Below are positions 44,875 through 64,000 of a DNA stretch of 64,000 bases, piece by piece; position 1 is the first letter of the stretch, and the number at the start of each line of letters is the position of its first letter. Made by a program: the position numbers and the translations under genes. Under the pieces are notes generated by a model that saw nothing but the letters and a program-made list of their open reading frames with translations, ran no database searches and was not told the origin of the DNA. The DNA is from Carcharhinus longimanus (Eukaryota): positions 16,220,111 to 16,284,110 of the forward strand of contig JASCQW010000160.1 of assembly GCA_030264375.1 (NCBI GenBank), in the 5' to 3' direction.

Positions 44875-44903
44875 TCAATAATACATGTTTCTGTCCCACC
44901 AAC
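44875..44903 (-). CDS. ATP12A: Non-gastric H+/K+-ATPase alpha, terminal exon
   Basis: ttacag|GT TGG TGG GAC AGA AAC ATG TAT TAT TGA = SWWDRNMYY*; ATP12A ends WWDKNMYY, Na,K-ATPase ends WVEKETYY. Confidence 0.92.
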
Positions 44904-46210
44904 CTGTAACAGTCACATTTTTCTATTAATATTTGAATTATTCAGTAATTCTCAAGACTATCATGACTTAGTTGCACAGTTATAAGTTTTCTTTGTTAGC
45001 AGATAAAGACACAATAGATATGGTCACATATTTCAAGATAAATTGTGGCAAAAAATTATTTTTTTGAAACTTTTTTTTTCATGGGATATGGGCATTGCTG
45101 GCCAGCACTTGTTGCCCATCGCTATGGGTCTGGAGTAAGAATGCAGATTTCTGTCCCAGAAGGTCATTAGTAAACCAGACAGGTTTTTACAGCAATAATT
45201 TCATGCCCACCAGCTGCAATGGATTTGAACCCACTAGGTCACTAACACAAGGCCTCTCCAGTAGGGAAAGTCCCACATGAAACAGAAGTAGACTTAAGGG
45301 ATATGCTGGAGTACCTTTTTTTAACATTTGTTCATGAGATGTGGGCTTGGCCAGCATTTATTGCCCATGCCTAATTACCCTTCAGCTGAGGGCATTTAAA
45401 AGTGAACCAGATGAATTTTTCCAACAATTGTTTCATGGTCAAGAGTAGATTCTTAATTCTAGATAATTCAAATTCCACCATCTGCAATGTTGGGTCTCTG
45501 GATTAGTAGTCCACCACTGCCTCCCCAGTCCCCAATATCCCCTGATGAACCCATTTCTGCTTGTGAAAGGAGCAAACTCTGGGTGAGGTTATATCTGTAG
45601 TCACGAAATTTGACAAATGGGGCCACCCAGCCCCTTACACTCTCAGGAAACTTACTTTCTGAATATCACAAGGCAACAGGTATGGCATCTGTGCTGACTG
45701 GGAAACTGGTGATACCTCCAATTGTTTCCTGCAAAGTTCTAAACTGCACTTCTAAGTAAGTATACTGGATTGAGGGCTGAAGTCGGAGGAATTTTATCTG
45801 CTATGTTGAACAAAAGGGATTGCAAAATGACAATTTCTATTCACAATCTACTGCAATTTCTTCCTTTCAGATCACACAATTTGGAAGGAAGAATCATTTC
45901 ATGAGAAAAAATGGGCAATGTTCACAAAATCTCCCCTCATAAAAGCAATTAAAAACATCATTCAAAAAAGAACTGTGTCATTTTAGGATCCAATTTTTTT
46001 TTTTGCTGCTTTACTTGAAGTACTTGTCAGTGGCACGGGGGTGATGTGAGTACAGCTACGTCAATTTGCACATTTCCGATTGAAGAGGTTGTGTACATTG
46101 CAAGCTGTGTATTTGATGAAAAATCTCTGGTGTCAGACTTTTGCTATACCTCCTTTTGTCATTTGCACTGAAAAAGTTAAAAATTGAGAACCAGTTTTAG
46201 GAAAACTTAC

Positions 46211-46302
46211 TTCCAGGGTATCTGCGGATCAAGAATTTACGAGCTTCATCATACACAAAAATTAAAATTGCGAAAGGTGAGACGACAAACCAGTACTGAA
46301 TC
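46211..46302 (-). CDS. ATP12A: ATP12A exon (M10)
   Basis: 92 nt; [30 protein letters not shown]. Confidence 0.92.
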
Positions 46303-46377
46303 CTATAAAGAATAAAAATATTGATTAGAATTAATACCATGTAACATAACCATATATGATAATGAATCACAAACCAC

Positions 46378-46875
46378 GGGCAGGATTCTCTGGTCTCTCT
46401 GCAGCTTGTTGGGATTTTCCATTGACTCCATCATGCCATCAGGAAACCCACGGCAGGGGCGTATCGTTGGTGGGCACTCTCAGGTGGGCACTGCTTAGCC
46501 ATGTCCCCAACCACACTGGGCGCTTCAATAGCAAAATGACGATTTCTATTCAGATAGGCCTCGGTGGTATCTCATGGCTCATGAGGCTCCAAGCCCCCTG
46601 GATTGGCCATTATCGCAGGTCTCCACTAGATTCTTGTGCGTGCCCGAGGGTCAGAAGATCCCGGGAGCTGGGAGAATTTGGCGTCGAGTGGACTAGGCAT
46701 GTTTAAATGTGTTAACCAGTCTCACAGTCTTTCTGGGCATAATCCAGATTGCACTACTAGAAAGGGACTGAGGTGATTGCAAACCATTCAGCACCAAGTA
46801 CAAAACCCGTTTTCAGGCTTGAACGCTACTTTCCGGGATCGGCGCCAGGCACGGTGAGGCTGGAAAATCACCCCC
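46378..46875. mobile_element. GC-rich MITE, Harbinger-like
   Basis: gggcaggattctc ... ggaaaatcacccc inverted ends. Confidence 0.5.
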
Positions 46876-48403
46876 CCTTGTCTTCTGGGTTGTTCTGTGC
46901 CTTATGGTAAGTTTCAAGTTTATTTCTGTCCTTTGTGGAATAGTTTTAGATAAATTTGCTGTGCACTTTTTGTAACTCGATGTATAGAACTGCAGTTCAC
47001 TGTATGACTGCAAACAGGACAATATTTCAAATTTTATGTTCATTCTAATTTCACTGGTTACTGAGCTGAGATATCCATACTTTATGAAGATTTGATAATG
47101 GTCTAAGTGGGTCACACTCAGCACCAAAATTTGGTTGAATGCCTTTCATATTGCAATGCTTCATAAAGGCTGAGATTTTTCTACTTAAACAGCTTTTAAG
47201 TTGCAGATCTGGGACTTCCAGGTCTATTGCTTTAACAACAATCCATCAATTTCAGCTTTGAAATTTCTAATGCTAGGGGAAAGATTTTTCAATTTTCACT
47301 CCCATTTAACACAAAATAAACCAAGGAATTACCAGTTGTGTTTTGGAGTTGGAAGAGTTATTAGAACTTTTTCATTTACAGTCATTAGCTGAGAACTTCC
47401 TTTATTAATTTTTGAATTGCAATATTATTCTCTAGCTGATCATATTCCTGTCAGATTAATCTGAAATATTTTGGCCAGAATTTTACTGTCCCACCTGCCA
47501 CGGAAATTGGAGTTGNNNNNNNNNNNNNNNNNNNNNNNNNNNNNNNNNNNNNNNNNNNNNNNNNNNNNNNNNNNNNNNNNNNNNNNNNNNNNNNNNNNNN
47601 NNNNNNNNNNNNNNNACGCGCCCCCCCGCCCCGGAAATGGGAGGGGAGGGGGGGGGGGAGAATGCGGTAGGTGGCACAGACCATGGAGAGGTCTGCTGAA
47701 CTTGGGCAGGTTTTTCCAGTTTTGGGGTGAGTAAAGCCAGGAGTCTGTTAGTTGTACACGTAAAGGTATCACACCTGAGCAATGCAATAGAAAGCATAGC
47801 TCAAAACAAGAATACTCACTCTGATTCTGCAATGTTTAAAGAAAATAAACACTGGCTCAGAAGCACTGTGTGTTTTTATAAGTGTCTGGTAGGTAAAGGG
47901 TCAATGTGGGAGTGAGTACAGTACTGGCCCCACAGTGATGTAAGGAGAGCCTGGGGATGGACACAGTTGGGTTGAGACTTAAAATGGGGTCAGCTCCATA
48001 CTTGTATATTCTTCTGTAAATATGTACATTGTTAGAGTTAATAAAGGCTTGCTGTTAGGTGCGGAACAGGGGCTAGGTATTACTTCCTCACAGCTGCAGG
48101 GACCTGGGTTCAATTCTGGCCTTGGGTGAGGGTGGAGAATTTCAACATTCTTCCCTTATCTGCGTGGGATTCCATCAGGTGCTCCGGTTTCCCCCACACA
48201 GTCCAAAAATGCGCGGGTTAGATGGATTAACCATGGCAAATGTTTGGGGTTACAGGCAGGGGGCAAGGGTGCCTGGGTAAGATACTCTATCAGAGAGTCA
48301 ATGCAGGATCGTATGAATGTATTCAATGACTGAAGGCTGTGATGTCCAAAGCAGGATTCTTCACTCAGCATTCGAGCAAACAACATTAGTGTGAATTCCT
48401 CAC

Positions 48404-48505
48404 CTGAGAGGGGTGAAGTGAAGACTGTTTTGCATCCCAGGGCTGTAGCAAAGCAGAAGAGCGATACCAACTTGAGAGAGGAGACCTATCCAGAGCACTT
48501 TATTT
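48404..48505 (-). CDS. ATP12A: ATP12A exon (M9)
   Basis: 102 nt; NKVLWIGLLSQVGIALLLCYSPGMQNSLHFTPLR; SQ in place of Na,K-ATPase EE. Confidence 0.92.
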
Positions 48506-49577
48506 CTAGAAAAGAGATTAGAAAAAAGTTACTGGTTCAGACACTTCCAAAAAAATCTCACTACCCCCACCCCAGTTGTGTTCATGTTGTCATCCCCTTT
48601 TATGCTGCCACTCAGGGGTCACAAATACCCCTCCCATGGTCAAACTGAGACAAAGGCTGGAAAAGAATATCCCCACAAATAATTCAGAAGTATATTCTGT
48701 ACAGGCACCAGAAAACTGTAGCATCCCTTTCAGTGTTTGACCTAAAAATTAGGGAGTAATTTCACCATTTTTTTGTGCTGAGTGGACTGGAAACTGGGAG
48801 AGTTTCAGATCTGTCTTGCGAGTATGTTTTTGAGGCTTCCCCCATACGCACTTGCCTGCACAATTCTGAGTGGGCGGGGCTTAACATGCCTAAAAGTCTG
48901 TACGTGCACATTAGCAGCAGTCTGGCCCCTGCAGTGCAAGCTGCCCCCCAGCCGTCCAGACTGATCATGGACCCACCACTGGTTGCTACAGAGTGGGCAC
49001 CCTCTCCCACATTAGCCCTGCCCAGGTCATACTGCTATGTAAATACTCCTTTATATAAATGTCAATACATTAACCTGCCTCTCAATCATTTCCAGTAAGA
49101 GGCTGACCAAGCCGGAAATCTAGCACTTGTAAAATGGCACCAGTCGTAAAACCCAGCGCTAATTGCTTTACCCTGCTAATCCCACCGACATTTAACATGG
49201 CCAATCCATGTAACATCTTTGGACTGTGGGAAGAAACCAGAGGAAACCCACAGCCATGGGGAGAACGTGCAAATTCCACACAGACAGTCACCCAAGACCA
49301 GAATTGAACCTGGGACCCTGGTGCTGTGAGGCAGCAGTGCGAACCACTGTGCTGCCCTTTAACCTTTGTGAAATAAAATTAAGGGTGGGATTTGGCTACC
49401 TTGCTCCAGTTCCCAAAACTGGAAATGCCCACCTGAGGTCAATGAACCTGTGCATGGTCTGCCCTGCAACCACCCACCACTACGAATCCCATGGTGGGTG
49501 GGACAGGAAAATTTCCCTGAAAAAGTTTAGCAGTCGGGATTTGCTTTGAAGTGCAATATTGCTACATAAAGTCTTAC

Positions 49578-49711
49578 CCAAATATACCCTGCTGGAAAAT
49601 GGAGTTGCGTCTGGTTTTACGAATGATCAAGTCTGCGAGTTGTTCAATGACAATTCCAACAAAGAAAGCCGTGTAGCAGGTCCACTCCATATACCGTCTC
49701 TGCTGATACGT
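49578..49711 (-). CDS. ATP12A: ATP12A exon (M8)
   Basis: 134 nt; [44 protein letters not shown]; IIRKTRR is H,K-type. Confidence 0.93.
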
Positions 49712-50790
49712 CTGCCAATGAGAGATTTGAACTTTTACAGGTGTGTCTCCAGCAGAAGCTTACCTGGGAAGGAGCGGTTTCCCCAGAGGACCCTCCCCAC
49801 GCTGACCTGGCCAGGGCCATAGGTTAACAAGATGAAAACCAAAAGAAAATAATTGCTGGAAATACTCAGCACGTTGGCAGCAACTGTAAAGCGCGAAACA
49901 AGAGTTGGCATTTCATACAGGCCTTTCACGATTGATCAGAAATGGTGAGTTGAAGGGAGGGGTGGATGTAAGNNNNNNNNNNNNNNNNNNNNNNNNNNNN
50001 NNNNNNNNNNNNNNNNNNNNNNNNNNNNNNNNNNNNNNNNNNNNNNNNNNNNNNNNNNNNNNNNNNNNNNNNTAGAGAATTCACAGGTTCCTCACCCTCT
50101 GATTTCTCGTTTCTCCTCATTTCAGTCCTAAATGCTCTACCCTGTATCCTGAGACTGTGGCCCCTTGTTTGAGAGCCTCCAGCCAGAGGAAACAACAGCC
50201 GGAATTTTACCAGCACGCCCGCTCCGATCCTAGGGCGAGCGAGGCTCGCAGAACAGCATTCTCCATTGGGCAAGGGAGTAATGTTCCAGCAAACATCTCA
50301 GAATCCTGACTAGGCTGGATAGATTGGATGCAATAAGATCCCCCATCATTCTTTCAAGTTCCAGTGAATATAGGCCCAGTTGACCCAATCTCTCCTCCCA
50401 TCCCAGAGATCAGAATATTTTAATCATTGATAGTGGCCAGATTCAGGATGAAATTTGGTTTGGGGGATCTTCCCAAGGCTTTAGTGGAAAAAAGTGCAGC
50501 TCACCTAAGACTGAATGTTGAAAAAACTGTTCATTTTATAGGCAGTAGAGAGGTCAGAAAAGGTAGAGCTCAGTGTTATCAGTGCACATGAAGCTAATCT
50601 CAACGCACAATCAACAAAAATGGCCTTAGATTATAATAAACATCTAAAATTATCTATGTTTGTCTTCAGAACAGTGACTGTACTGTAATTTATTAGTCGT
50701 AAAATGCTTTGAGATGTCCTGAGACGGTGGTAACATGCTATATAATTATAAGTTCTCTAAAGATAATGACTCATGGAACAATATTCCTAC

Positions 50791-50936
50791 CCATTCTTGC
50801 CCATAGCTGTCTTCAACATCATTATTAGTTGCATCCTCCCAAGCTAAACGTATACCAAGAAGCCTTGAAGGAAACCAGCCTTGGTCTGCCAAGACAGTGA
50901 AATAACAAAGAAATCCTCCAACTGACTCTGTTACAC
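50791..50936 (-). CDS. ATP12A: ATP12A exon (M7 and M7-M8 loop)
   Basis: 146 nt; [49 protein letters not shown]; SYGQ beta-subunit binding motif. Confidence 0.93.
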
Positions 50937-53015
50937 CTGTAAGAATTAGAGAAGCGGTCAGATTTCCGTATGAGTCTATATATAACTGAAGATGGACATG
51001 CAAAAACAGATACCCGAATAAAGTAGACATAAATATTCATGCAAAATGGGTTCTAATGACTGTTCACTCTATGTTGTCGTTGTTGTTGCTGCTGCAGCAA
51101 GGTTGGAGAATTTGACACCCAGCAAACTCTCTGTTCACTGCAGCTGGATGGGAAAATCCTACCAGCATGAACGATGGTGACATTCCAGCCTTTTTTCAAA
51201 AAAACCCAGAACTTTTCTCATTTCTTTCAGATAAAAATCCGGATGCTGGATCTTTAGACATTCACATTGGCGGGATCTCCCTGTCTCACGGATTGCATAA
51301 CCCTGCCAGAAGTGCATTCGACAGGAAACCCCATTGACAATGGCGGGACTAGGAGATCCTGCCGTCGGCCAATGGTGGACACACGTGGGTTACATAGAAA
51401 ACCCCACCCGTTGTTTGCATCAAAAACATCGATTCCCTGCTCTTTCTAACCCTATTTTTGGAAATGACTTCACAGGCCAGATGAAACTTCCCAAAGCCAC
51501 ACAGATAAATTTTCCAGTGAGGACAGATACACTCCATTACACATCTGCACACTTAAATTGCCTGCTAAATTTAGCGAAGGGGCTAAACATGAAGTTACAC
51601 GTTCAAGGACAAAAATATATTTACCAATAACATATGTACTTCCAAAGACCAAGTTCCTTGATGATTATTATTGTTATTCACTGGTCAGATATGGTGAAGA
51701 CTTGTGTGTTCTATTAAGGTATGGGTATAGGCTACTCAGATAGATCATGGCTGAACACCATCTGAGCTTCGGGAAATTTCAGACTTCCAGTACCCTTTGA
51801 GTGAAAACTTATTTTGTCATTTCACACCTGAATGGCCCAGGTCAAAGCTTTCCTTTGATTTGGAATCCTCCACCCAGCTTTTCTCTATCCACTCTGTCAA
51901 AAATCTTGGTTATTTCAAAGACCTGAAGTCCATAGAATCCCCACAGTGCAGAAGAGGCCATTCAGCCCATCAAGTCTCCACCAACTCTCTGACAGCATAT
52001 CCCACCCAGGCCCTCCCCTCTGCCATATTCCTGTAACCATGCCCATTTACCACTGCTAATCCACCCAACCGATACATCTTTGACAATTTAACATGGCCAA
52101 CCACCTAATCGATCATCCCTCAGTCTTCTAAACTTATAGGAATTCAAGCAATCACTCCTCCTTTTATGGGCAATGCATTCTCCTGCCTGGTCTCATCCTT
52201 GGAGTTTTCTGCTCCATTTCCATCACCATTTTAGCTAGCGTCCGATGCAGATTAGTACTCCGCATTTGCTCCCAAGCCAATTACAGCTCCTGGAAACCCC
52301 TAATACGATTTCACCAGTGTTTTGTTACTTGCCTAAGCTCAGTATCTTTCTCTGCAGCTACTTTTAAGATCCAGAAGACAGGTCAAACCTGCCACTCTTA
52401 ACTCTAGGAATACAGCACTCCAGCATTCAGTGGCAGCACTACAGCTTTTCCATGTCGGAAAGAAACTCAGAGCGGGGTTTCCTGGCCCCGGGACATGTCT
52501 TTCAGTGGCAGTGGCAGTGGCAGAGGCGGCTTGCCATTGGCTACCAGGAGGATTTTCCTGTCCTGCCAATGACTACCGCGTTTTGTGTGACTCGCCCATC
52601 CCATTGTCAGGGAACCCATCCATGGGGGGAGGGGGGACACCTCTGGAAGGACCAGAAAATTCCAACCTCAGAGGTTTGGGCAGAGGAGCTTGAAAATGAA
52701 AAAAACATATCCATTAAGGCAGTTTCCTGAATAAAATTTTAACAAGAAAAATAAAATGACTGAAAAGGGAAAACGGTTAGTAAAAGAGTACAAATCGAGT
52801 TTTTTGCTCAAAGATGAGCAAATGTCAAAATATGTACTTTGAATTGAATCTAGAATGGCAAGATCAAAAAAAAACTTGGATTACCATTAAGCTTGTATGT
52901 TTAATCTTATTGTATAACTAGTGCCCGACCACCTCAGTTACGAAGCTATTAAACTCTGGCAGTGTACAGCAAATAGTGAATCACAGTGCAGCAAATTTTA
53001 AGTGTGTCTGCTCAC

Positions 53016-53139
53016 CAACTTGCAGGTATGAATATGATGCCAGATGCAAGTTCACCAGTTGATCTTTGCTGGGGTTTCGGGGTTGGACATTCATTATATC
53101 TCTTTCAGCTTTCTCATAGGCCAATGAAATTGATGGGAT
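53016..53139 (-). CDS. ATP12A: ATP12A exon (M6-M7 loop)
   Basis: 124 nt; [41 protein letters not shown]. Confidence 0.93.
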
Positions 53140-53672
53140 CTGTTGATGAAGCAATCGGTTGATTAGAAGCCTACTTATAATTAGGACTCAAAAATCTTGG
53201 CATTTATATGTTACATACATCTCTGCATTCAGATACATAAAACAAAAGGATTTTGTACATTGATAATTCATATTCCAATTCTTCCCGATCAAAGCTTGTG
53301 CCCCAACATGTGTTCATTGTAAATTTCACCCACCTTACAGGAGTGCAGTAGAATTTTGCATGGTTCTTTTCAATTTTTGAATATTGGTTGGAATAGCAGT
53401 AGCGGTGGGGAATATTAGAGTTAGGGTTAGCAGTGATTTGCTCCTTACCCAACTTCCATTTCAAACCTGCCCCCAGTCCAGATTTGCTTCTGGTCTTTCT
53501 CTCCCACACAATTCATTCCGAGTGCTAATGGAGGCAAGATTGGAACCAAATTCCCACCTATCTAACGACCATCTCTTCCTAGTGGATGGTTGTGATGGTA
53601 GTTCTTGAGGTTGCAATGGCAATGACTCTGTTGTCCAACAATGGTGAAACAGGTCAAATTAAAAGCTCCCTT

Positions 53673-54000
53673 TCATAGAATCCTACAGTGCAGAAAGAGG
53701 CCATTCAGCCCATTAAGTCTGCACCAACCACAATCCCACCCAGGCCCTGTCCCCATATCCCTACATATTTACCCATTAATCGCTCTAACCTATGCATCCC
53801 GGGATACTAAAGGCAATTTAGCACAGCCAATCAACCTAGCCTGCACATTTTTGGACTGTGGGAGGAACCCAGAGGAAACCCATGCAGACAGAGGGAGAAT
53901 GTGAAAACTCCACACAGACAGTGGCCTGAGCTGGGATTCGGACCCAGGTCCCTGGAACTGTGAAGTAGCAGTGCTAACCACTGTGCTACCATGCCACCCA
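53673..54000 (-). mobile_element. HE1 SINE
   Basis: near full length; further copies or fragments at about 36608, 48060, 49165, 51930 and 56930. Confidence 0.88.
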
Positions 54001-54452
54001 TTCCTTGCAGACTGACTCCCATGCCTCCAATCTACAGTTTCTGACTGGCTCCCTTCACAACAGTGGAATTTTCTGCTCGTCCCTGGCCACATACCGCACT
54101 CCTGCTGTAGTGGGTTTCATGATAGCATCACAAACATTCCCTCCTTCGACTCAAGTGGGTTCCCTACTGCAATATTGCTTGCAGAGTCAAGATGCATGCA
54201 CTATTGTACAATGACCCAACGTTCTTGTGAGACTGCCCTCCTTTCATGTGTGCTGAAAATTATGAATTCATTATGTGACCATCTTCTAAGTAATGTGATG
54301 GGTGAAAGGGAAAATATAAGTTGAAATCAGCCATAATATGTCCATGATCGATCAATCCATTAAGAATGGAGCAATGATGATATGGAAAGAGGGAGGACAG
54401 GGAAAAGACCAAAACTGGTATAACTGATTCTAGAGCATGAATAATTACTTAC

Positions 54453-54607
54453 AACATCTGTACCCAAGTCAATGAGCAGAATGGTAATAGTACCGATGGG
54501 AAGCGGGATACTGGTAATGATGTACACGAGGAAAGGACACAACTCAGCCATGTTCTTTGTCAGGGTGTAGGCGATTGCCTTCTTCAGATTGTCAAAAATC
54601 AGACGAC
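54453..54607 (-). CDS. ATP12A: ATP12A exon (M5-M6)
   Basis: 155 nt; [51 protein letters not shown]; KNxAELCPF and IDLGTD separate it from ATP4A (KNIPELTPY, IELCTD) and ATP1A (SNIPEITPF). Confidence 0.95.
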
Positions 54608-55111
54608 CTGTTGAACATATTACACCGATTTGGCAGTGAGAAAACATCCACAGTCTGACAATGATCTTTATCTACTAAATCGCAAATCATAAACACACAA
54701 ACCTAAAGCAATGTCCGACAGCACAATATAGGCATTTCTCAATTGCCAGCTTCTCAACTTAATTCCCACAAATCCTAACTGGAGTTGAATAATTCGCCTG
54801 GAAATATTTCAAATCCAAAGACCCATTGAGTGCAGATCCTCCTCTTTGTCCAGATTCCTGCTCTTTCATCTCTTGCAGCTGAATTCGAATCATGCCCAGA
54901 CTCTACTTTTAGAAAAGGTTCTATAATGATGGAGTGAAGAAAAGCACCTGAGCTTGTGCACGCTGCAAGGACTGTATCCAAAGTGTATCTTTCCCTCTCC
55001 TTTCCCCAACCTGCTGCATAACATTTTCCACTTGCATTTGGAAGTTGATTGGATAAAGAAAGAACATTTATTTGTGAACTGCACTTTACCTGGGATTCCA
55101 ATCACAGGCCA

Positions 55112-55404
55112 CAATCCCTACAGTGCAGGAAGCGGCCATTCGGCCCATCAACCACAATCCCACCCAGGCCCTATATCCATAACCCCATGCATTTACCCCA
55201 GTCAGTCCCCTGACACCAAGGGGCAATTCAGTATGGCCAATCCACCTAACCCATGCATTTTTGGACTGTGGGAGGAAACTGGAGCACCCAGAGGAAACCC
55301 ACACAGACATGTGGAGAATGTGCAAACTCTACACAGTGACCCAAGCGGAATTGAACCTAGATCCCTGGCACTGTGAGGCAGCAATGCTAACCAACATGCC
55401 ACCC
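55112..55404 (-). mobile_element. HE1 SINE
   Basis: reverse complement of the HE1 pattern. Confidence 0.88.
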
Positions 55405-56039
55405 AGAAAATCAGGTGCAACCCCAGTTCAGCATGGGGCTTCTGGCTCCATTCTAGGCCCACGAGGGTTCCAATACCTATAAAAGCCTGCCTCCAAGAGC
55501 TGCCAGATAATTGGAGGGCTAACAACTCTTCATCCCAGCAGGGCCACCCAACTAAAACGCAGCTATGGATGCAGTCCTCAGAACAAGGTGAATGGAGTCA
55601 CGCATCATCAGGGTCAGTTATGGAATCTCTGACCAAGGGGGTGGCCAGACGGGAAGGGGTGGGCAGAAATGTGCTGGTGAAGGCAGCAGAGATGTTGCAA
55701 TGGTGGCAGCCACTCCCTAGACCATAGGGTTACTGATTCGGAGGAAACCCCACCACTGTGCCCTCAGCAAGGCTGCCATGTTCACCAAGCAGCCACTCCA
55801 CGTAAGAGGGCTCCCCACTGCTGGTCTAATGCCAGCAGCACCAAGAAGACACCCTTAATTAGGCACTTAAATGTCCCAGTTGGCCTTCGATTGGGAGGGA
55901 AAGCCACCCTCCATCTTGCCACCAAGGTAGCGGGCACTCTCGCCTTTCCTCACTACATCCTGCACCCCCCCAGCCCCGTCCCCTCCCTTCCAGTGAGTCC
56001 ATCACCCGTGAGAACTAGTAAGATTCAGTACGTCATTTA

Positions 56040-56303
<264 letters not shown>

Positions 56304-56604
56304 TCAAGTCCCCATGAATCTTTTAGGTGAAAAAAATCTCCAAAGCTTCATAATTCCCTAATCTTCTACAACAAATATCAACTTTATTGTAACAGTACTA
56401 CTTGTAGTCACTTTACCCAATAGTTGAGGTCAAGTTACAAAGGGAATAATCAAACTGATCAAGAAAATGGTCCCTTCCTCAATACCGCACTGGCCGAGAT
56501 CATGTGCTCCCTGAAGTGTGACTTAAATCTGTATCATTCAAACATTAAGGTGAAAATGCCACCACTTTTCTGAGCTAACTTCAGATTAACAGGTGAATGG
56601 TTAC

Positions 56605-56755
56605 CTGTCTTTGGCAGGCCTCAACGATAATTAATTTCTGCTGAGGTGACGTCCTGGCAAATACAATTTCACTGTGATTCCTCAAAATGTTGTCCAGGAA
56701 CTCTGGGTCCATCACTTGGAAATCTGACCCGTTTATCACAGCAGCTTTGGCTTCC
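56605..56755 (-). CDS. ATP12A: ATP12A exon (P domain)
   Basis: 151 nt; [50 protein letters not shown]. Confidence 0.93.
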
Positions 56756-57281
56756 CTTATTCAAAATACAAAGAACATTTACACCGTGTTATATTTACTG
56801 CATTTCATAACTTGGCATATTTTCATATCACAGTTATTTTCAGGCATGTCAACTGTAGGGTCCTCGAGTTCAACGTGAATATTAAAACCTCTCTGTTCCT
56901 CCTGCTGTCAACATGCATCGAGTCTATATATCAGTCCAAAGATGCGCGAGTTAGAGACAATTTAGCATTGCCAATTCACCTTAGTGTCAACTAGGGTAAA
57001 TGCATGGGGTTATAGGAATGGGGCCTGTGTGGGATTATGGTTGGTGCAGCCTCGATGAGCCAAATGGCCTCCTTCTGCGCTGTAGAATTCGACAATTCTA
57101 CATGTTGACGTGTGATTAGCTTCTCTATGCCATCAGATATCAACAGATGTTAGCCACACTGGTCAGTCTCCCATACCTGTATCAGGAATACAACACCAAC
57201 AGCTCATTTAAACACCCACGCAAGTTACTGGCTGCAAAGTAGCCTCGTGTCATTTACCCTGCCTATGGAATTCTCTCTCAG

Positions 57282-57562
57282 GCAGGCGGCACAGTGGTTA
57301 GCATTGCTGCCTCAAAGCGCCAGAGACCCAAGTTCAATTCCCAGCTTGTCTGTGCAGAGTTTGCACGTTCTCCCCGTGTTTACGTGGGTTTCCTCCGAGT
57401 GCTTGGGGTTTCCTCCCACAGACTGCAAGACATGCTAGTTAGTTGCATTGACCAAAATAAATTCTCCTTTGTACCCAAACAGACTCTGGAGTGTGACAAC
57501 TGGGGGATTTTCACAATGGCTTCATTACAGTGTTGATATAAGCCTACTTGTAACACTAATAA
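57282..57562 (+). mobile_element. V-SINE, alternative-tail subtype
   Basis: tail cattacagtgttgatataagcctacttgtaacactaataaa. Confidence 0.85.
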
Positions 57563-58021
57563 AAAACACATTAGGCATAATTCTACAATCCTAGCAGGGA
57601 GCTGTGCTGATAGAGAGTACTGAGTAGAGAATGCAACCTGTATCTGATCTAATGTGGTACATGACACCCCTCCACCTATCCCCACACTGAGTGAGAGAGA
57701 ACAAGGAATTATGCCTTCTGTTTCTTGTAGGTATAGCTTTGAGATACAGAATCAACCAAAAGCAAAATACTGCAGATGCCAGAAATCTGAAATTAAAAAC
57801 AGACAATGTCTGCAGAAAGAAAAGCAAAAGAGTGATTTTTTTTCAGTTTTAGATCAGATTTAAGTTCATAAATGCTTGCTGTACCAGGAGCACTCAAGGA
57901 AGCGGAGAATAACTTGTGAGAAATGCTTGCTGATGGCCCAGTACAATTTCTCCAATAATTAAATCTCAATAACATGGTGAAAGAAAGAGTCTTTAGTGTA
58001 ACACAGATTACCTCAATCTAC

Positions 58022-58158
58022 CTTTTATTCACTTGGGTGACAGGGATATTAAGGCGCTTTGCGATTTCTTCCACTGTCTCACTGCCAGCCGAGATAATGC
58101 CAGTACTCCTTGCTATAGCCTTTGCTGTGATTGGGTGATCTCCAGAGACCATAATGAC
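58022..58158 (-). CDS. ATP12A: ATP12A exon (P domain)
   Basis: 137 nt; [45 protein letters not shown]. Confidence 0.93.
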
Positions 58159-60165
58159 CTGTCAGGGAGAGATAAATAGGCACTTGTTAATTTTTTTTAT
58201 TCATTTGTGGGACATGGGCTTCGCTGGCTGGCCAGCATTTATTACCCATCCTAGTTGCCCGAGGGCAGTTGAGAGCCAATCACATCACTGTGGCTCTGGA
58301 GTCACATGCAGGCCAGACCAGGTGAGGTTGGCAGATTTCCCTCCCTAAAGGACATTAGTGAACCAGATGGGTTTGTCTGACGATCGGCAATGGTTTCATA
58401 GTCATCGGTAGACCGAATTTCTATTTTATTATTGAATTCAAATTCCATCATCTGCCACGGTGGGATTCAAACCTGGGTCCCCAGATCATTAAGTTGAGTT
58501 CATGGATTAACAGTCCAGCAATAATACATGAAGCCATTGCCCCCCCCCCCACACCCACACTAATGTTAAGAGCTTTAAAACAAAACTAACAAAATTCAAA
58601 GATTTCCAGTCCATCAGACACTTTTAATTTTGTGGGTTTTACAGAATTTAATAGGTTCTGTAAAATTCTCAGGTTAAAATGCATAAAATCATTACATTTT
58701 GATGTCTGATAATATACCTTTTTATCTGATATCCCAGTGTAGCAGAAACTGCCAATTTACTGGCATTCTGTGTGTGAAAGATGTGAAGGCCGTAGATAGA
58801 GGGAGACCACAAAAAGAATTCACAAAAATGGATCCAGAAATAAAGAATAATCTCAAAATACTGCAGATGCTGAAATCTGAAACAAATTCTGTGTGCTCGC
58901 ACGCAGCGGCAGCAGAATAGCCGGAAAATTCCTTGTGTCAGCTCTCGACTGAGTTATCCAATTCATTCAATTTCTCTGCTCTTTGCCCATAGTAGTTATT
59001 TATTTACAAACAGAAAATGCTGGAAAATCTCAGCAGGTTTCAGAGCATCTGTGGGGAGAGAATAGGGCCAACTTTTCAAAGAACAAAGAGAATCAGGAAA
59101 GATTTATACCACGAGGGTGGCAGGGAAAGGGGCGGAATGGGACAAAGGGAATGTAAATGAGGATACAGAAGGCTGAGAAGGTGCTAAAAGTACCCATTAA
59201 GAGATTAGAATGAGTGAATGGCAGAACACAGGCACAGGCGCTGTTCCTCCAGTTTTGCGCTGGTGTTCATTAGAACATTGCAAAAGCCAAGGACGGACAT
59301 GTAGACAGGAGAGCAGGGTGGTGTGTTGAAATGGCAAGTGACAGAAAGCTCTGCATCCTGTAGAGATTCTCTGATTTTATTCTATGATTTAAATGTAGCT
59401 GTTTTCTGGGTTTTTTTCAAACTCCAGGCTTTGCTGTCCAAGAAACCTTTAATCTGGTTAGCTGAATGATGTCTTCTCTACTCACAGATCCTGTGCTGAA
59501 AAGCCTCTAAAAGTCAGTGAGCTGCTGCATGCAAGGTGAACAGAGCAAAGTCCAGGCCATTATAAATTAAATCAAAAAGCCCTCTGGGCCATATGGATGA
59601 AAATTCCTGCCAATTATATATGCTGACTGTTCTTTTTAAGATACTACCTAGTATCTCTAGGTCGTAAATATGAATGTTTCCCTAATATTTAATAATTAAT
59701 TGCAAACATGGTACATCCGTACCCATTTCCTTTGCATGAGGTAAATAATTTGACCATTGGCTCTCTATCTTTCAGGCCAATTTCTTGCTTTCTTCTCTAT
59801 AACAGGGTACCAAGATCACTTGCAATTAATTTCACTCTAAAACCAGCAGAGTACCATTACCACCCCAAAAACCTCCAAGATTACCATGGTTGGGGAATCT
59901 AAACCCACAGAACTTTCCATTTTACAAAACTGTAAGCAGGATTAAAAGAAACATGAGCTAACTATTTTGGATAATTATTGCCTTTGGATAGCGATTTTGG
60001 CAAATGAGTCAGAAAGAAAAGCAAGTGTGATTGCACCAAATTTGCATAATTGCATATCATTCTTATAGGGTTAAACAATTTTGGGGGAAAAACATACTGG
60101 CATTCATCAATTTAACCTTAGCGGGAAAGTATTAAAAGCAAATTACATGCAATGGAAGACCATAC

Positions 60166-60341
60166 CCTGATTCCTGCACTTCTGCATTTTAGTACAGCGT
60201 CTGGCACATTTGAACGAGGTGGATCAATCAGAGACAGAAGACCAATGAAGCATAAATTGGAGATTGGGAAATTCTTTTCGTCTGCGTCAAATATGTACAA
60301 ATCTGGATATTTGTCTTTTGGCAAATATTGATGACAAAATC
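60166..60341 (-). CDS. ATP12A: ATP12A exon (N domain, DPPR hinge)
   Basis: 176 nt; [58 protein letters not shown]. Confidence 0.94.
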
Positions 60342-60571
60342 CTAAAAGAATTGAAAATTGTTAGTGAAAAACTCACAAAACATAATTGTGACATTAAATT
60401 CCTACCAAAATCTATATGGCTAATTAATTAGCAAGCTTAAAAAAAGGTGGAACATTTGGTTATTTAAGGAAGAACATGGCAAAATATAGGCCACAAAAAT
60501 TTCTAACTCCAAATTATATAAACAGAATTGCTGAGATTTTGCAGAAGGGTCAATGTTCATGTCAAGATCAT

Positions 60572-61028
60572 GGGCGGTGCAGTGGCACAATGGTTAGCAC
60601 TGCTGCCCCGCAGCTCCACAGACCCGCGTTTGATTCCAGCCTTGGGTGACTGTCTTTGTCGAGTTTACATGTTTTCCCTGTGTCTATGTGCGTTTTCTCC
60701 TGGTGCTCCAGTTTCCTTTGACAATTGAAAGATGTGCAAGGTAGGAAGATTAGCAATGGCAAATTGCTCCTCAGTGCCCCAGGTTGTGTAGGTTNNNNNN
60801 NNNNNNNNNNNNNNNNNNNNNNNNNNNNNNNNNNNNNNNNNNNNNNNNNNNNNNNNNNNNNNNNNNNNNNNNNNNNNNNNNNNNNNNNNNNNNNTCCCTT
60901 AGTGTCAGGGGGGTTAGCAGGGTCAATATGTGGGGTTATGGGGATTGGGTCTGGGTAGGAATGATGTTGGTGCAGGCTTCGTGAGCTAAATGGCCTCCAT
61001 CTGCACTGCAGTGATTCTATGATTCTAT
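60572..61028 (+). mobile_element. HE1 SINE spanning a gap
   Basis: head before the gap, tail after it. Confidence 0.8.
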
Positions 61029-61439
61029 ATGAGTCCATATGAACACAGTGGGTCGTTGCAGTGCTGTAACTATTCCATCATCCCATAAATTTAACTTATC
61101 ACAGGAGAAGCGGAAATTAACACTGACTTATGTTGAAAGTAGCACCAGCTAACACTCAGCCCCAACCAAATCCACAGCAAATCCTCTGCTAGAGAGGTGG
61201 CCCAGGAAAATTAGATATAAAGTATCAATTGCATTTGAATCTGTCTAAAGTCCACCAATCACTAGTTGGTTGTAATAATGCCAAAGAGAAATGTCTGGAG
61301 AATGTGGTGATCATCAAATCTATACACACATGTGCAGCTAATCAAAACAATTCAGAGAGGTGCAACTTGGTTTTAAAAGTAAATTTTCATATATGGGGTC
61401 ATGTGAATTATGAGAAAAATGGTCTTTACTGAGAAAGTC

Positions 61440-61715
61440 CTGTAGCACAGTTGGGCCAGACGTTCTCGGTTCAAGTCCCATTTCAGGACTTGATGGCCAT
61501 GGAAGGTGTGTTCATAACAGGAACAAACAGGTTAATCCTTCCCCAATAGGCCTGATGGCAGATTGTAAGAGCAGGAGGGTTTCCTGATCAGCCATTTTGC
61601 AGAAGGCAATGGCAAATCACTGCGGTACTTTTTGCCATACAAATTCATGGCCCAATCAAATGGAAGTTCATGGTTGCCAATGCCTTCCTAGGGCAGGGTA
61701 CGTGAAGGAGGTGCA
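61440..61715 (+). mobile_element. tRNA-headed SINE with RTE-type tail
   Basis: ggttcaagtccc B-box; gaaggcaatggcaaatcactgcggtacttt resembles RTE/BovB 3' ends; related head at 23305-23400. Confidence 0.55.
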
Positions 61716-62072
61716 GGTCTTCACATCAATGTCAGTTGAGTTAATGTATTCATAAAATGAAGAGATAAATTCTTGATCTTTGCTTAAACTAGAAGCATTA
61801 AAGTAGGAACAAAAACTAAAATCAATAAACCAACCTCGATCTGTTTAATTTCACTGGCCAGGATTTTCTAGCTCCATTGGAAATTCCCACTGAAAGTCAA
61901 TGGATGTTTTGCTCATCGCCAAATTTTCCAATTCTCTCGCAACCAGAAAATCTAGCCCATTATTGTTAGACAGATTCATTGAGCTAATAATTAGCTGTCC
62001 AGTAAGATAATTTGTTCAAATTAAATACTCCAATGAGTCATACATGGTGCACCTCTTATCTCGTCTTCTTAC

Positions 62073-62265
62073 CTAGAACTCTCTCCCCCATCCCTCCAAA
62101 TTCATGATAAGCCGAGTTAATAACTTCTATCTGACTATCATCCAGAGGAACCTCTCTGCCCTGAAGCATTATGGTGGAACAAGATTCCAAGATGCGTTCT
62201 GGTGCCCCCTTCATCGCTAGGAGGAGACGTTTATCATATGGATTGTTGGTCTTATGAATGGACAG
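62073..62265 (-). CDS. ATP12A: ATP12A exon (N domain, KGAPE)
   Basis: 193 nt; [64 protein letters not shown]. Confidence 0.94.
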
Positions 62266-62444
62266 CTAAAAATAAAAATGCATTAGTTAAACATCTACTA
62301 TATTGGTTTTATTTTGCTTTAAGGAGGAAAGATGTAAATGGAGTAAATGTAAATGGCTAAACCAGTCATAGGATTTGTTTTAGAATTCACCTCGTAAATT
62401 GGACTGCACCTCCCACCATCTGTAACACACGGTGCACCTCTTAC

Positions 62445-62635
62445 CTAGAGCATATGCTCTTAACCCTCCAAGTTCAAGACAATCCGACTGAATGATTTCT
62501 ATCTCAACATCATCCAGCGGGATCTCTCAGCCCTGAAACATTGTGTGGAACAAGACCCAGTATGCTCTCTGGCATCCACTCTTCATCATTAAGAGGACTT
62601 GCCTGATGTTAGCTGATGTCAAATAAAGCAGACAC
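62445..62635 (-). pseudogene. Degenerate tandem duplicate (pseudo-exon) of the ATP12A KGAPE exon
   Basis: reads QVLLMMK..PESILG.CST..FQG*EIPLDDVEIEIIQSDCLELGGLRAYAL with frameshifts and a stop; keeps the donor CTAG|gtaaga; 5' boundary approximate. Confidence 0.85.
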
Positions 62636-63925
62636 AAATAGATGTCCCAAAAAATGTTGAAATAAAACCTGAAACCTAATTTAGGAGGAGTCACAATCGG
62701 TTACGTACTTGAAGGTGGATAATAAACAATTTCTACTTCTGCATCTTCAGCCTTATTAGTGCAAATTACATGTCTTTGTTAAGAACCCAATCATTCCATT
62801 TTACAAATACCACCCAGCTGCCATTGAATATTCCAGTGTCTGATGTGATCACAAAGGATCTCAGGTCAGCTGTAGCTGATGTCAGCTCTGTAGTGGGTTT
62901 GAGATTCAAAATGACACAGAGCCAGAAAGTGGCCTTTCTATAGATAAGATTATCTGAAAATCAAAAATGTGCAGGGTTATGGGGAGAAGACAAGAGAATG
63001 GCACAAAGCGAAATGTTCATTCAGAGAGACGGTGCAGGCACAATGAGCCAAATGGCCTCCTTGTGCACTGTAACAATTCAATGAGATCAAAAAATTGCAG
63101 AATTTTGGGACATAAGTGAATTATTCAGGCAAGAAAATCCAAAGCCTTGATCAATCCCTGTGCTCAAACAAATCTCTGTTCACAAAACCGGCCTCACCTC
63201 CTAACCTTGAACACGAGTAGCTTCCAATTGTATTTGTTAAGAGTGTGTCTTCGCATTGAGAGCAGACTTACAGGGCTAGTGGGAAAGACAGCCATCTTCT
63301 GCAATTTCTTAAGCTTTTTTAAGTTATCCTCATTGAAAATTACATTATTATTTGTTTCTTTTAATGAATTTTCATGCATTCAATTAATTACATGTTTGCA
63401 GGTTCTGAAACATGCTGTAGCTGATGTACATAAATGATGGTTAGAAGTTTTCATATGTATAAGATAAATCTGGGTCCAAGTTTTCATATGTATAAAATAA
63501 ATCTATGGAATGGATTCAACACTTCCTTTGGACCCTGGGTTTTTTATATTGATTAATGTCCTATTTTGAATTTTCGGAGTATTCCAATGAAAATAAGGGT
63601 GTACTTTGAGGTAACATAGGTAGGACATTGATTATGTTTCTGGCTGCAAAGTCTAGGTTGTGTCCGCAGAGGGAACTCTGGCGCTGTTGAAGATCCTCAT
63701 TGGCTGCAAAGAATGCAAGCATTCATTAAATTGCGAAAGCCGTTAATAAATGCAGACTCTTTCCTTCAAATTTAACAACTAATGAGGGTTAGAAGAGCAG
63801 ATTAGAGACTGATCACAACCTTCAGTCCTGTTACTGGGCTCTGAAATTGCTGGACATATGAGTTATTTTGACAAAGACTTGGAAATGTAGCAAAATCATA
63901 TTCTCCTGCAAATCTCATACATCAC

Positions 63926-64000
63926 CTGAAATTTGTTGGTTGAATTGAATGGTATTTCAAATATTTTGGTATTCTCCTCTCTGAATTCCATCACATTGCC
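63926..64000 (-). CDS. ATP12A: ATP12A exon (N domain), truncated by the window edge
   Basis: GNVMEFREENTKIFEIPFNSTNKFQ|gtgatg. Confidence 0.92.

What the first reader, a model, noticed from the sequence alone, without database searches (positions are those of the whole stretch)
62431..62635. Decayed tandem duplicate of the ATP12A ATP-binding (KGAPE) exon
Seen: about 180 nt upstream (in transcription direction) of the live exon 62073-62265 is a second, colinear copy reading QVLLMMK..PESILG.CST..FQG*EIPLDDVEIEIIQSDCLELGGLRAYAL. It has frameshifts and a stop but keeps the donor (CTAG|gtaaga) and shares the intronic flank ggtgcacctctta (62046 and 62431). The dead copy keeps consensus-like LELGGL where the live exon has divergent HEFGGM. 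Inference: an old single-exon duplication, possibly a former mutually exclusive exon pair in the nucleotide-binding domain, with the more derived copy surviving. I do not know of such an arrangement in vertebrate P2C pumps.
Basis: partly seen in the sequence, partly recalled or inferred. Interest (0 to 1): 0.7.

Follow-up and report, generated by a model that had tools for sequence, protein, structure and literature searches.

The report
Dead partial exon copy, shark ATP12A
An intron of an intact shark proton-potassium pump gene holds a broken, incomplete copy of the next exon, likely an old copying accident that is decaying without a function; this is an ordinary kind of genomic fossil.

Summary
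The duplicate is real: 74% identity over 161 nt, 372 nt from the live 193-nt KGAPE exon of an intact 22-exon ATP12A-like gene in a carcharhiniform shark. It is only a partial copy. Homology covers the last 153 nt of the exon plus about 30 nt of intron. The first 40 nt and the acceptor are not detectable (P about 0.003 for decay alone). It carries three indels, a TGA and a destroyed KGAPE motif. Four related organisms hold the copy with no indel inside it. In them it mutates at intron rate (7/153 against 0/193 in the live exon), and one has lost the donor GT. Its amino-acid-changing sites diverged at about the neutral rate (omega about 1.4, 95% interval 0.56-3.35), so long service as an alternative exon is unlikely. 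All 29 shark and ray ATP12A proteins from 17 species show one version of this exon per species. The copy's older residues (ELGGL) fit a frozen snapshot of the ancestral exon beside a gene that has changed faster throughout this lineage. Verdict: an old, likely neutral pseudoexon. A brief past as a mutually exclusive exon is not excluded. RNA junctions were not seen.

The parts
62445..62597 (-). Dead partial copy of the last 153 nt of the KGAPE exon: +2, -1 and -1 indels, TGA at 62529-62527, KGAPE destroyed
62416..62444 (-). Copied donor (GT at 62444-62443) and intron flank, 22/28 identical to 62058-62031. GT is lost in run X8 and the -1 G is changed in X11
62598..62640 (-). Where the exon's first 40 nt and acceptor should lie: no detectable homology and only weak AG sites (score at most 1.4 within 62773-62465)
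62266..62415 (-). Non-duplicated spacer with the live exon's branch-point-like motifs (62287, 62283) and pyrimidine tract; a 202-nt insertion in run X8
62073..62265 (-). Live 193-nt exon (exon 11 of the 22-exon model, phase 0 to 1), nucleotide-binding domain with KGAPE, AG/GT ends
62031..62072 (-). Live donor and intron flank, the counterpart of the copied flank, with 13 extra nt
63926..64000 (-). 3' part of the upstream exon 10 (phase-0 donor)
60166..60341 (-). Downstream exon 12
44875..64000 (-). 3' part of the intact ATP12A-like gene (exons 10-22); exons 1-9 lie in the adjoining 34 kb of G000:C160

Best explanation
The segment is a broken, partial copy of the ATP-binding exon of shark ATP12A, likely a neutral pseudoexon that is spliced out with the intron. 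Shown: the copy covers the exon's last 153 nt plus donor and flank, lacks a detectable 5' part and acceptor, has three indels and a stop, and mutates at intron rate in relatives. Inferred: it arose from one local copying event before this lineage split from Mustelus. Either about 185-195 nt were copied in one step 150 nt upstream of the acceptor, or a whole-exon tandem duplicate soon lost its 5' part by deletion. Because the exon is 193 nt, including two copies or skipping it would shift the frame (stops at codons 545 and 514). A copy without an acceptor is therefore the form that could be tolerated and drift to fixation. It then decayed while keeping some ancestral residues that the live exon has since replaced.
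For: Partial extent: the 5' 40 nt scores at shuffle level (16.5 against 17.5), while simulated decay at the copy's own rate gives 42; P=0.003. No trace of the missing piece elsewhere in the intron (best E 0.43). Neutral decay: 10/64 zero-fold sites in conserved codons changed (d=0.175), against 11/51 neutral sites over both lineages (0.127 per lineage); omega 1.38, P(omega<0.5)=0.014. Relatives X7 against X8: dead 7/153, live 0/193 (p=0.003), intron 15/622 (dead against intron p=0.17). No indel inside the copy in 4 of 4 runs laid; TGA unchanged in the 3 runs with complete difference tables; GT destroyed in X8; spacer length not kept. Cryptic AGs near the copy score at most 1.4, against 6.6 for the live acceptor. 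One exon version per species in 29 of 29 KGAPE-bearing proteins. Ancestral residues kept by the copy: E45, Q50, L54, L59 and possibly L56.
Against: No RNA junction was seen, so skipping of the copy is inferred. The donor 9-mer is still identical to the live one in this genome. The three indels sum to zero, which keeps the frame across the copy (about 1 in 3 by chance), although KGAPE is destroyed. The neutral yardstick rests on 11 changes. If all of them fell on the dead side, omega would be about 0.7, which leaves room for a short functional period. The acceptor model was trained on only 20 introns, and 2 of 21 real acceptors score below 0 with it. Tree placement of the copy is unresolved: the window's own terminal branch is 3.6 log-likelihood units worse but not rejected (AU 0.078). 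One residue (I48) groups the copy with Mustelus. The four relatives are close kin (about 98% alike), so they are not independent deep tests.
Confidence: 0.85

Rival explanations
1. Former mutually exclusive exon pair: both copies were once complete and alternately spliced, and the upstream one later died and lost its 5' end.
For: A 193-nt exon is the non-multiple-of-three type common in MXE clusters (60% of human clusters; PMC5740500, passages). The donor is kept, the net indel is zero, and the copy keeps ancestral residues. A whole-exon tandem duplication followed by a deletion gives the same final layout.
Against: Omega about 1.4 with P(<0.5)=0.014. No second version in 29 proteins from 17 species. 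No steric exclusion: the dead donor is 157-161 nt from the branch-point-like motifs, against under 50 nt in PMC5740500. No inverted repeat above 26 nt at 77%. No acceptor.
Confidence: 0.1
2. The copy is used today as a poison exon or decoy donor that tunes ATP12A through nonsense-mediated decay.
For: Strong donor in this genome (9.1, equal to the live one). All 5 cryptic exons tested give a premature stop when added to the live exon.
Against: GT is destroyed in X8 and the -1 G is changed in X11. The substitution rate is at or above intron level. Cryptic acceptors are weak.
Confidence: 0.04
3. Assembly artefact, or a fragment of another P2C gene.
For: The assembly has gaps: 11 N runs in the window, and one inside a paralog exon.
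Against: One contig of run X6 spans both copies without gaps, and X7, X8 and X11 hold the copy too. It is 26% diverged from the live exon, carries shark ATP12A-type residues, and frog and bird placements are rejected (AU below 0.001). It shares the live exon's own intron flank (p=0.0005).
Confidence: 0.01

Closest known systems
Unannotated intronic exon duplicates / decayed tandem exon copies (PMC9013439: 4,027 human intronic targets; passages read)
   Same: Intronic sequence homologous to a neighbouring exon, same strand, short distance
   Different: Here the copy is partial, frameshifted and shown to drift neutrally; some human targets have read support
Tandem-duplicate mutually exclusive exons (PMC5740500, PMC8373072, PMC9741552; passages read), including the ATP2B1-4 Ca pump events named in PMC8373072
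   Same: Tandem homologous exon, length not divisible by three, in a P-type pump gene
   Different: True MXEs keep both splice sites, an open frame and conservation; this copy keeps none of these. ATP1A, ATP12A and ATP4A do not occur in the main texts of PMC8373072 or PMC5740500; ATP1 and ATP4 do not occur in PMC9741552 (ATP12A is covered by the ATP1 prefix); supplements not read
Drosophila Atpalpha mutually exclusive exon cluster (recalled; not confirmed by any search)
   Same: P2C pump gene with duplicated exons
   Different: Functional in insects and, as recalled, in a different part of the protein
ATP12A, non-gastric H,K-ATPase alpha 2 (host gene)
   Same: Best structure match through the Mustelus ortholog; M5 lysine motif LTKN and DKTGT, KGAPE and TGDGVND present
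   Different: This lineage reads TGEF for the TGES loop and E for an otherwise invariant Q at residue 848

Membership tests
Mutually exclusive tandem exon pair | Homologous neighbouring exons on one strand | tested here: met
   74% over 161 nt, 372-nt spacing
Mutually exclusive tandem exon pair | Both exons complete, with acceptor and donor | tested here: not met
   No 5' 40 nt or acceptor; GT lost in X8
Mutually exclusive tandem exon pair | Open frame with the same phase | tested here: not met
   Three indels, TGA, KGAPE destroyed; net length unchanged
Mutually exclusive tandem exon pair | Purifying selection on both copies | tested here: not met
   Omega 1.38 (0.56-3.35); 7/153 against 0/193 changes between relatives
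Mutually exclusive tandem exon pair | Alternative isoforms in relatives' annotations | tested here: not met
   One version per species in 29 proteins, 17 species; no chimaera protein was returned
Mutually exclusive tandem exon pair | Exclusion mechanism (steric hindrance or competing RNA pairing) | tested here: inconclusive
   Steric hindrance absent (157-161 nt); only weak inverted repeats; a frameshift-decay mechanism would be possible
Mutually exclusive tandem exon pair | Junction reads into each exon | not tested
   No RNA data were laid on the locus
Decayed exon duplicate (pseudoexon) | Homology to an exon of the host gene, inside an intron | tested here: met
Decayed exon duplicate (pseudoexon) | Disabling lesions | tested here: met
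   shared with relatives
Decayed exon duplicate (pseudoexon) | Neutral evolution | tested here: met
   small counts
Decayed exon duplicate (pseudoexon) | Absent from mature mRNA | not tested
   Inferred only; no RNA data
ATP12A (host gene) | Closer to ATP12A than to ATP4A or ATP1A | tested here: met
   Mustelus ortholog 1568 bits against 1436 and 1408; window protein 95% to it and sister to it in the tree, bootstrap 100. The tree held no ATP4A or ATP1A rows. The exon alone did not separate alpha3 from ATP12A
ATP12A (host gene) | H,K-type lysine in M5 (LTKN, not LTSN; motif meaning recalled) | tested here: met
ATP12A (host gene) | Intact reading frame | tested here: met
   1011-codon open frame over 22 exons; 20 GT-AG introns and 1 GC-AG; start of exon 1 approximate
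ATP12A (host gene) | Synteny with tetrapod ATP12A | not tested
   Neighbouring genes were not annotated

The most novel reading that the evidence does not exclude
Early galeomorph sharks had two alternatively spliced versions of the ATP-binding exon of ATP12A, the first such pair in a vertebrate P2C pump. The upstream one died in this lineage but is still intact and used in some unsampled shark.
Probability: 0.06. Interest if true: 0.6.

Novelty: new member of a known kind. Interest (0 to 1): 0.15.

Why it matters
Little, as it stands: decayed intronic exon copies are a common class. It has two small uses. It is a presence/absence marker for shark phylogeny, and it is a frozen sample of the ancestral exon that shows which residues the live ATP12A exon has since changed. 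It would matter more only if an intact second exon turned up in another shark, because that would give a P2C pump with switchable ATP-binding domains.

Tried and rejected
No RNA holder was listed for the stretch (one guessed RNA run at share 0.10). No RNA was laid, so expression and junctions are untested. A metagenome scan gave 2 loci of 337 candidate stretches, both intronless P-type ATPase genes at 32-33% identity and irrelevant. Earlier findings: nothing by place or by words. Four paralog exons in this genome show no tandem copy within about 1.5 kb on each side (0 of 4). The missing 5' piece was not found elsewhere in the intron. Likelihood placement of the copy rejected frog, bird and some ray branches but could not choose among galeomorph branches. 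Exon-specific acceleration of the live exon was not significant (p=0.15). Paper searches: 'ATP12A'+'shark' 9 papers, none of the 7 listed relevant by title or abstract; 'Na K-ATPase'+'mutually exclusive exons' 0 (the comma form could not be searched); 'non-gastric'+'K-ATPase'+'elasmobranch' 1, on loaches; one search listed 25 papers with no ATP12A mention; PMC11765297 passages did not confirm MXEs in Atpalpha. Supplementary MXE catalogues were not read and could list P2C genes. An earlier count said 40 proteins; the checked count is 29.

Full report
Observation. On the minus strand, 62597-62439 aligns to 62225-62067 at 119/161 nt (74%, E 6e-21). A local alignment scores 181.5 against a maximum of 65 in 300 shuffles. 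The spacing is 372 nt. The copy has a 2-nt insertion just after the KGA codons, single-base deletions in the E and T codons of ILESCST, and AGA changed to TGA at 62529-62527. It ends in the same donor 9-mer as the live exon and shares 22 of 28 intron bases after it (p=0.0005). It is the only match in the 2.68-Gb genome besides the live exon (that search gives lower bounds) and the only intronic exon copy for 1 of 22 exons across 144 kb.

Host gene. The window is G000:C160:16220111-16284110. With 80 kb of adjoining sequence, shark orthologs map 22 exons that splice to an open 1011-codon frame with DKTGT, KGAPE, TGDGVND and the H,K-type LTKN (motif meanings recalled). The protein is 95% identical to Mustelus, 90% to Scyliorhinus and 72% to frog and bird ATP12A, and is sister to Mustelus within carcharhiniform sharks (bootstrap 100, one protein per species, 17 rows). 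The Mustelus protein scores 1568 bits to ATP12A structures, 1436 to Na,K alpha3 and 1408 to the gastric pump. The live exon is 193 nt, phase 0 to 1. Skipping it gives a stop at codon 514 and doubling it a stop at codon 545.

The copy is partial. Homology begins 40 nt inside the exon. The first 40 nt (p=0.71), that part with the acceptor (p=0.20) and the upstream 150 nt of intron (p=0.72) are at shuffle level. If the first 40 nt had decayed at the rate of the rest, the score would average 42; it is 16.5, with a null of 17.5 (P=0.003). The piece is not elsewhere in the intron (best E 0.43). A splice model built from the gene's own introns scores the 24 AGs between 62773 and 62465 at 1.4 or less, against 6.6 for the live acceptor. 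The model is small, and 2 of 21 real acceptors score below 0. One weak AG (before 62523) would give an in-frame substitute exon, but without KGAPE. A plain tandem duplication of a partial unit would leave the downstream copy incomplete, not the upstream one. So the layout needs either a one-step templated insertion or a whole-exon duplication followed by a deletion (inference).

Selection. In codons conserved in at least 90% of 15 distinct ortholog peptides, 10 of 64 zero-fold sites differ (d=0.175, assigned to the dead lineage). Neutral sites differ at 5/23 (four-fold) and 6/28 (intron flank), or 0.127 per lineage. Omega for the dead copy is 1.38 (95% 0.56-3.35; P below 0.5 = 0.014; 0.037 with four-fold sites alone). 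If every neutral change fell on the dead side, omega would be about 0.7, so a short functional period is not excluded. Raw dead-against-live dN/dS is 0.78 over 48 codons.

Relatives. Of 22 runs listed, 4 were laid, from organisms B to E, about 98% alike. All 4 hold the copy and none shows an indel inside it, so the frameshifts are shared. Difference tables are complete for X7, X8 and X11 (11 rows of X6 were hidden), and none of the three changes the TGA. X8 has lost the donor GT (62443) and carries a 202-nt insertion in the spacer; X11 has a changed -1 G (62445). Between X7 and X8 there are 7/153 differences in the copy, 0/193 in the live exon (p=0.003) and 15/622 in intron (p=0.17 against the copy); including the window, 8/153, 2/193 and 21/622. 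These are Logan contigs of modest depth and close kin.

Other sharks. Twenty homologs and their cluster members gave 30 chondrichthyan entries; 29 carry KGAPE and one is an unrelated 56-aa fragment. They span 17 species, several with 2-5 isoforms, and each species shows a single version of this exon. No chimaera protein was returned, and these are annotations, not genomic introns.

Why the copy looks more ancestral. It keeps E45, Q50, L54, L59 and L56 where the live exon has Q, N, H, M and F. Mustelus shares S44-Q45 with the live exon, which suggests the duplication predates that split. S51 is shared with carcharhiniforms, and I48 with Mustelus only. Likelihood placement favours galeomorph internal branches, within 0.6 log units of each other, and does not reject the terminal branch (AU 0.078), so the date is loose. 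The copy's divergence is roughly 14 times the per-lineage intron divergence between X7 and X8 (0.175 against 0.012). The whole gene has changed faster in this lineage (30 changes assigned to it against 13 to Mustelus or ambiguous), and the exon is not significantly enriched (4/65 against 26/864, p=0.15). A frozen snapshot explains the pattern without alternative splicing.

Comparison with what is known. Intronic exon copies are common (4,027 human targets; PMC9013439, passages). Human MXE clusters often have lengths not divisible by three (60%), and 9% rely on a donor-to-branch distance under 50 nt (PMC5740500, passages); here the distance is 157-161 nt. Tandem exon events are known in ATP2B1-4 (PMC8373072, passages). 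I found no mention of ATP1A, ATP4A or ATP12A in the main texts searched and no paper on this locus; supplements were not read.

Verdict. A real, old, partial and likely neutral pseudoexon: a new member of a known kind, interest 0.15. RNA junction evidence and distant shark genomes remain untested.

Noticed in passing
G000:C160, extended coordinate 76789 (L007), exon 6: The TGES loop of the pump reads TGEF here; among 16 other proteins only Pristis also has F. It could be a real change in a catalytic loop (role recalled) or an assembly error.
   Followed up: no
window 50928, 50874, 53061, 62217, 46232: Changes at positions invariant in the 16 other proteins: Q848E, L866F, R830Q, V493A, F996L, plus 2 more upstream. 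The gene's branch is about 7 times longer than that of Mustelus (0.050 against 0.007), suggesting relaxed or shifted selection. V493A is private to this genome against X6, X7 and X8.
   Followed up: partly
window 62316: A strong-scoring AG (9.2) 50 nt upstream of the live acceptor; X8 has a 10-nt deletion here.
   Followed up: no
L005 (G000:C105:35531138): The apparent frameshift in a Na,K-ATPase-like paralog exon is a 10-N assembly gap, not a lesion.
   Followed up: yes
extended coordinate 97952-97950 (L009): The first intron of the model uses a GC donor; the start of exon 1 was not resolved.
   Followed up: no
window 62948-63000 and 61882-61922: High-copy repeat fragments, by very high contig depth in all four runs; a 33-nt tandem pair at 63438-63503.
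   Followed up: no
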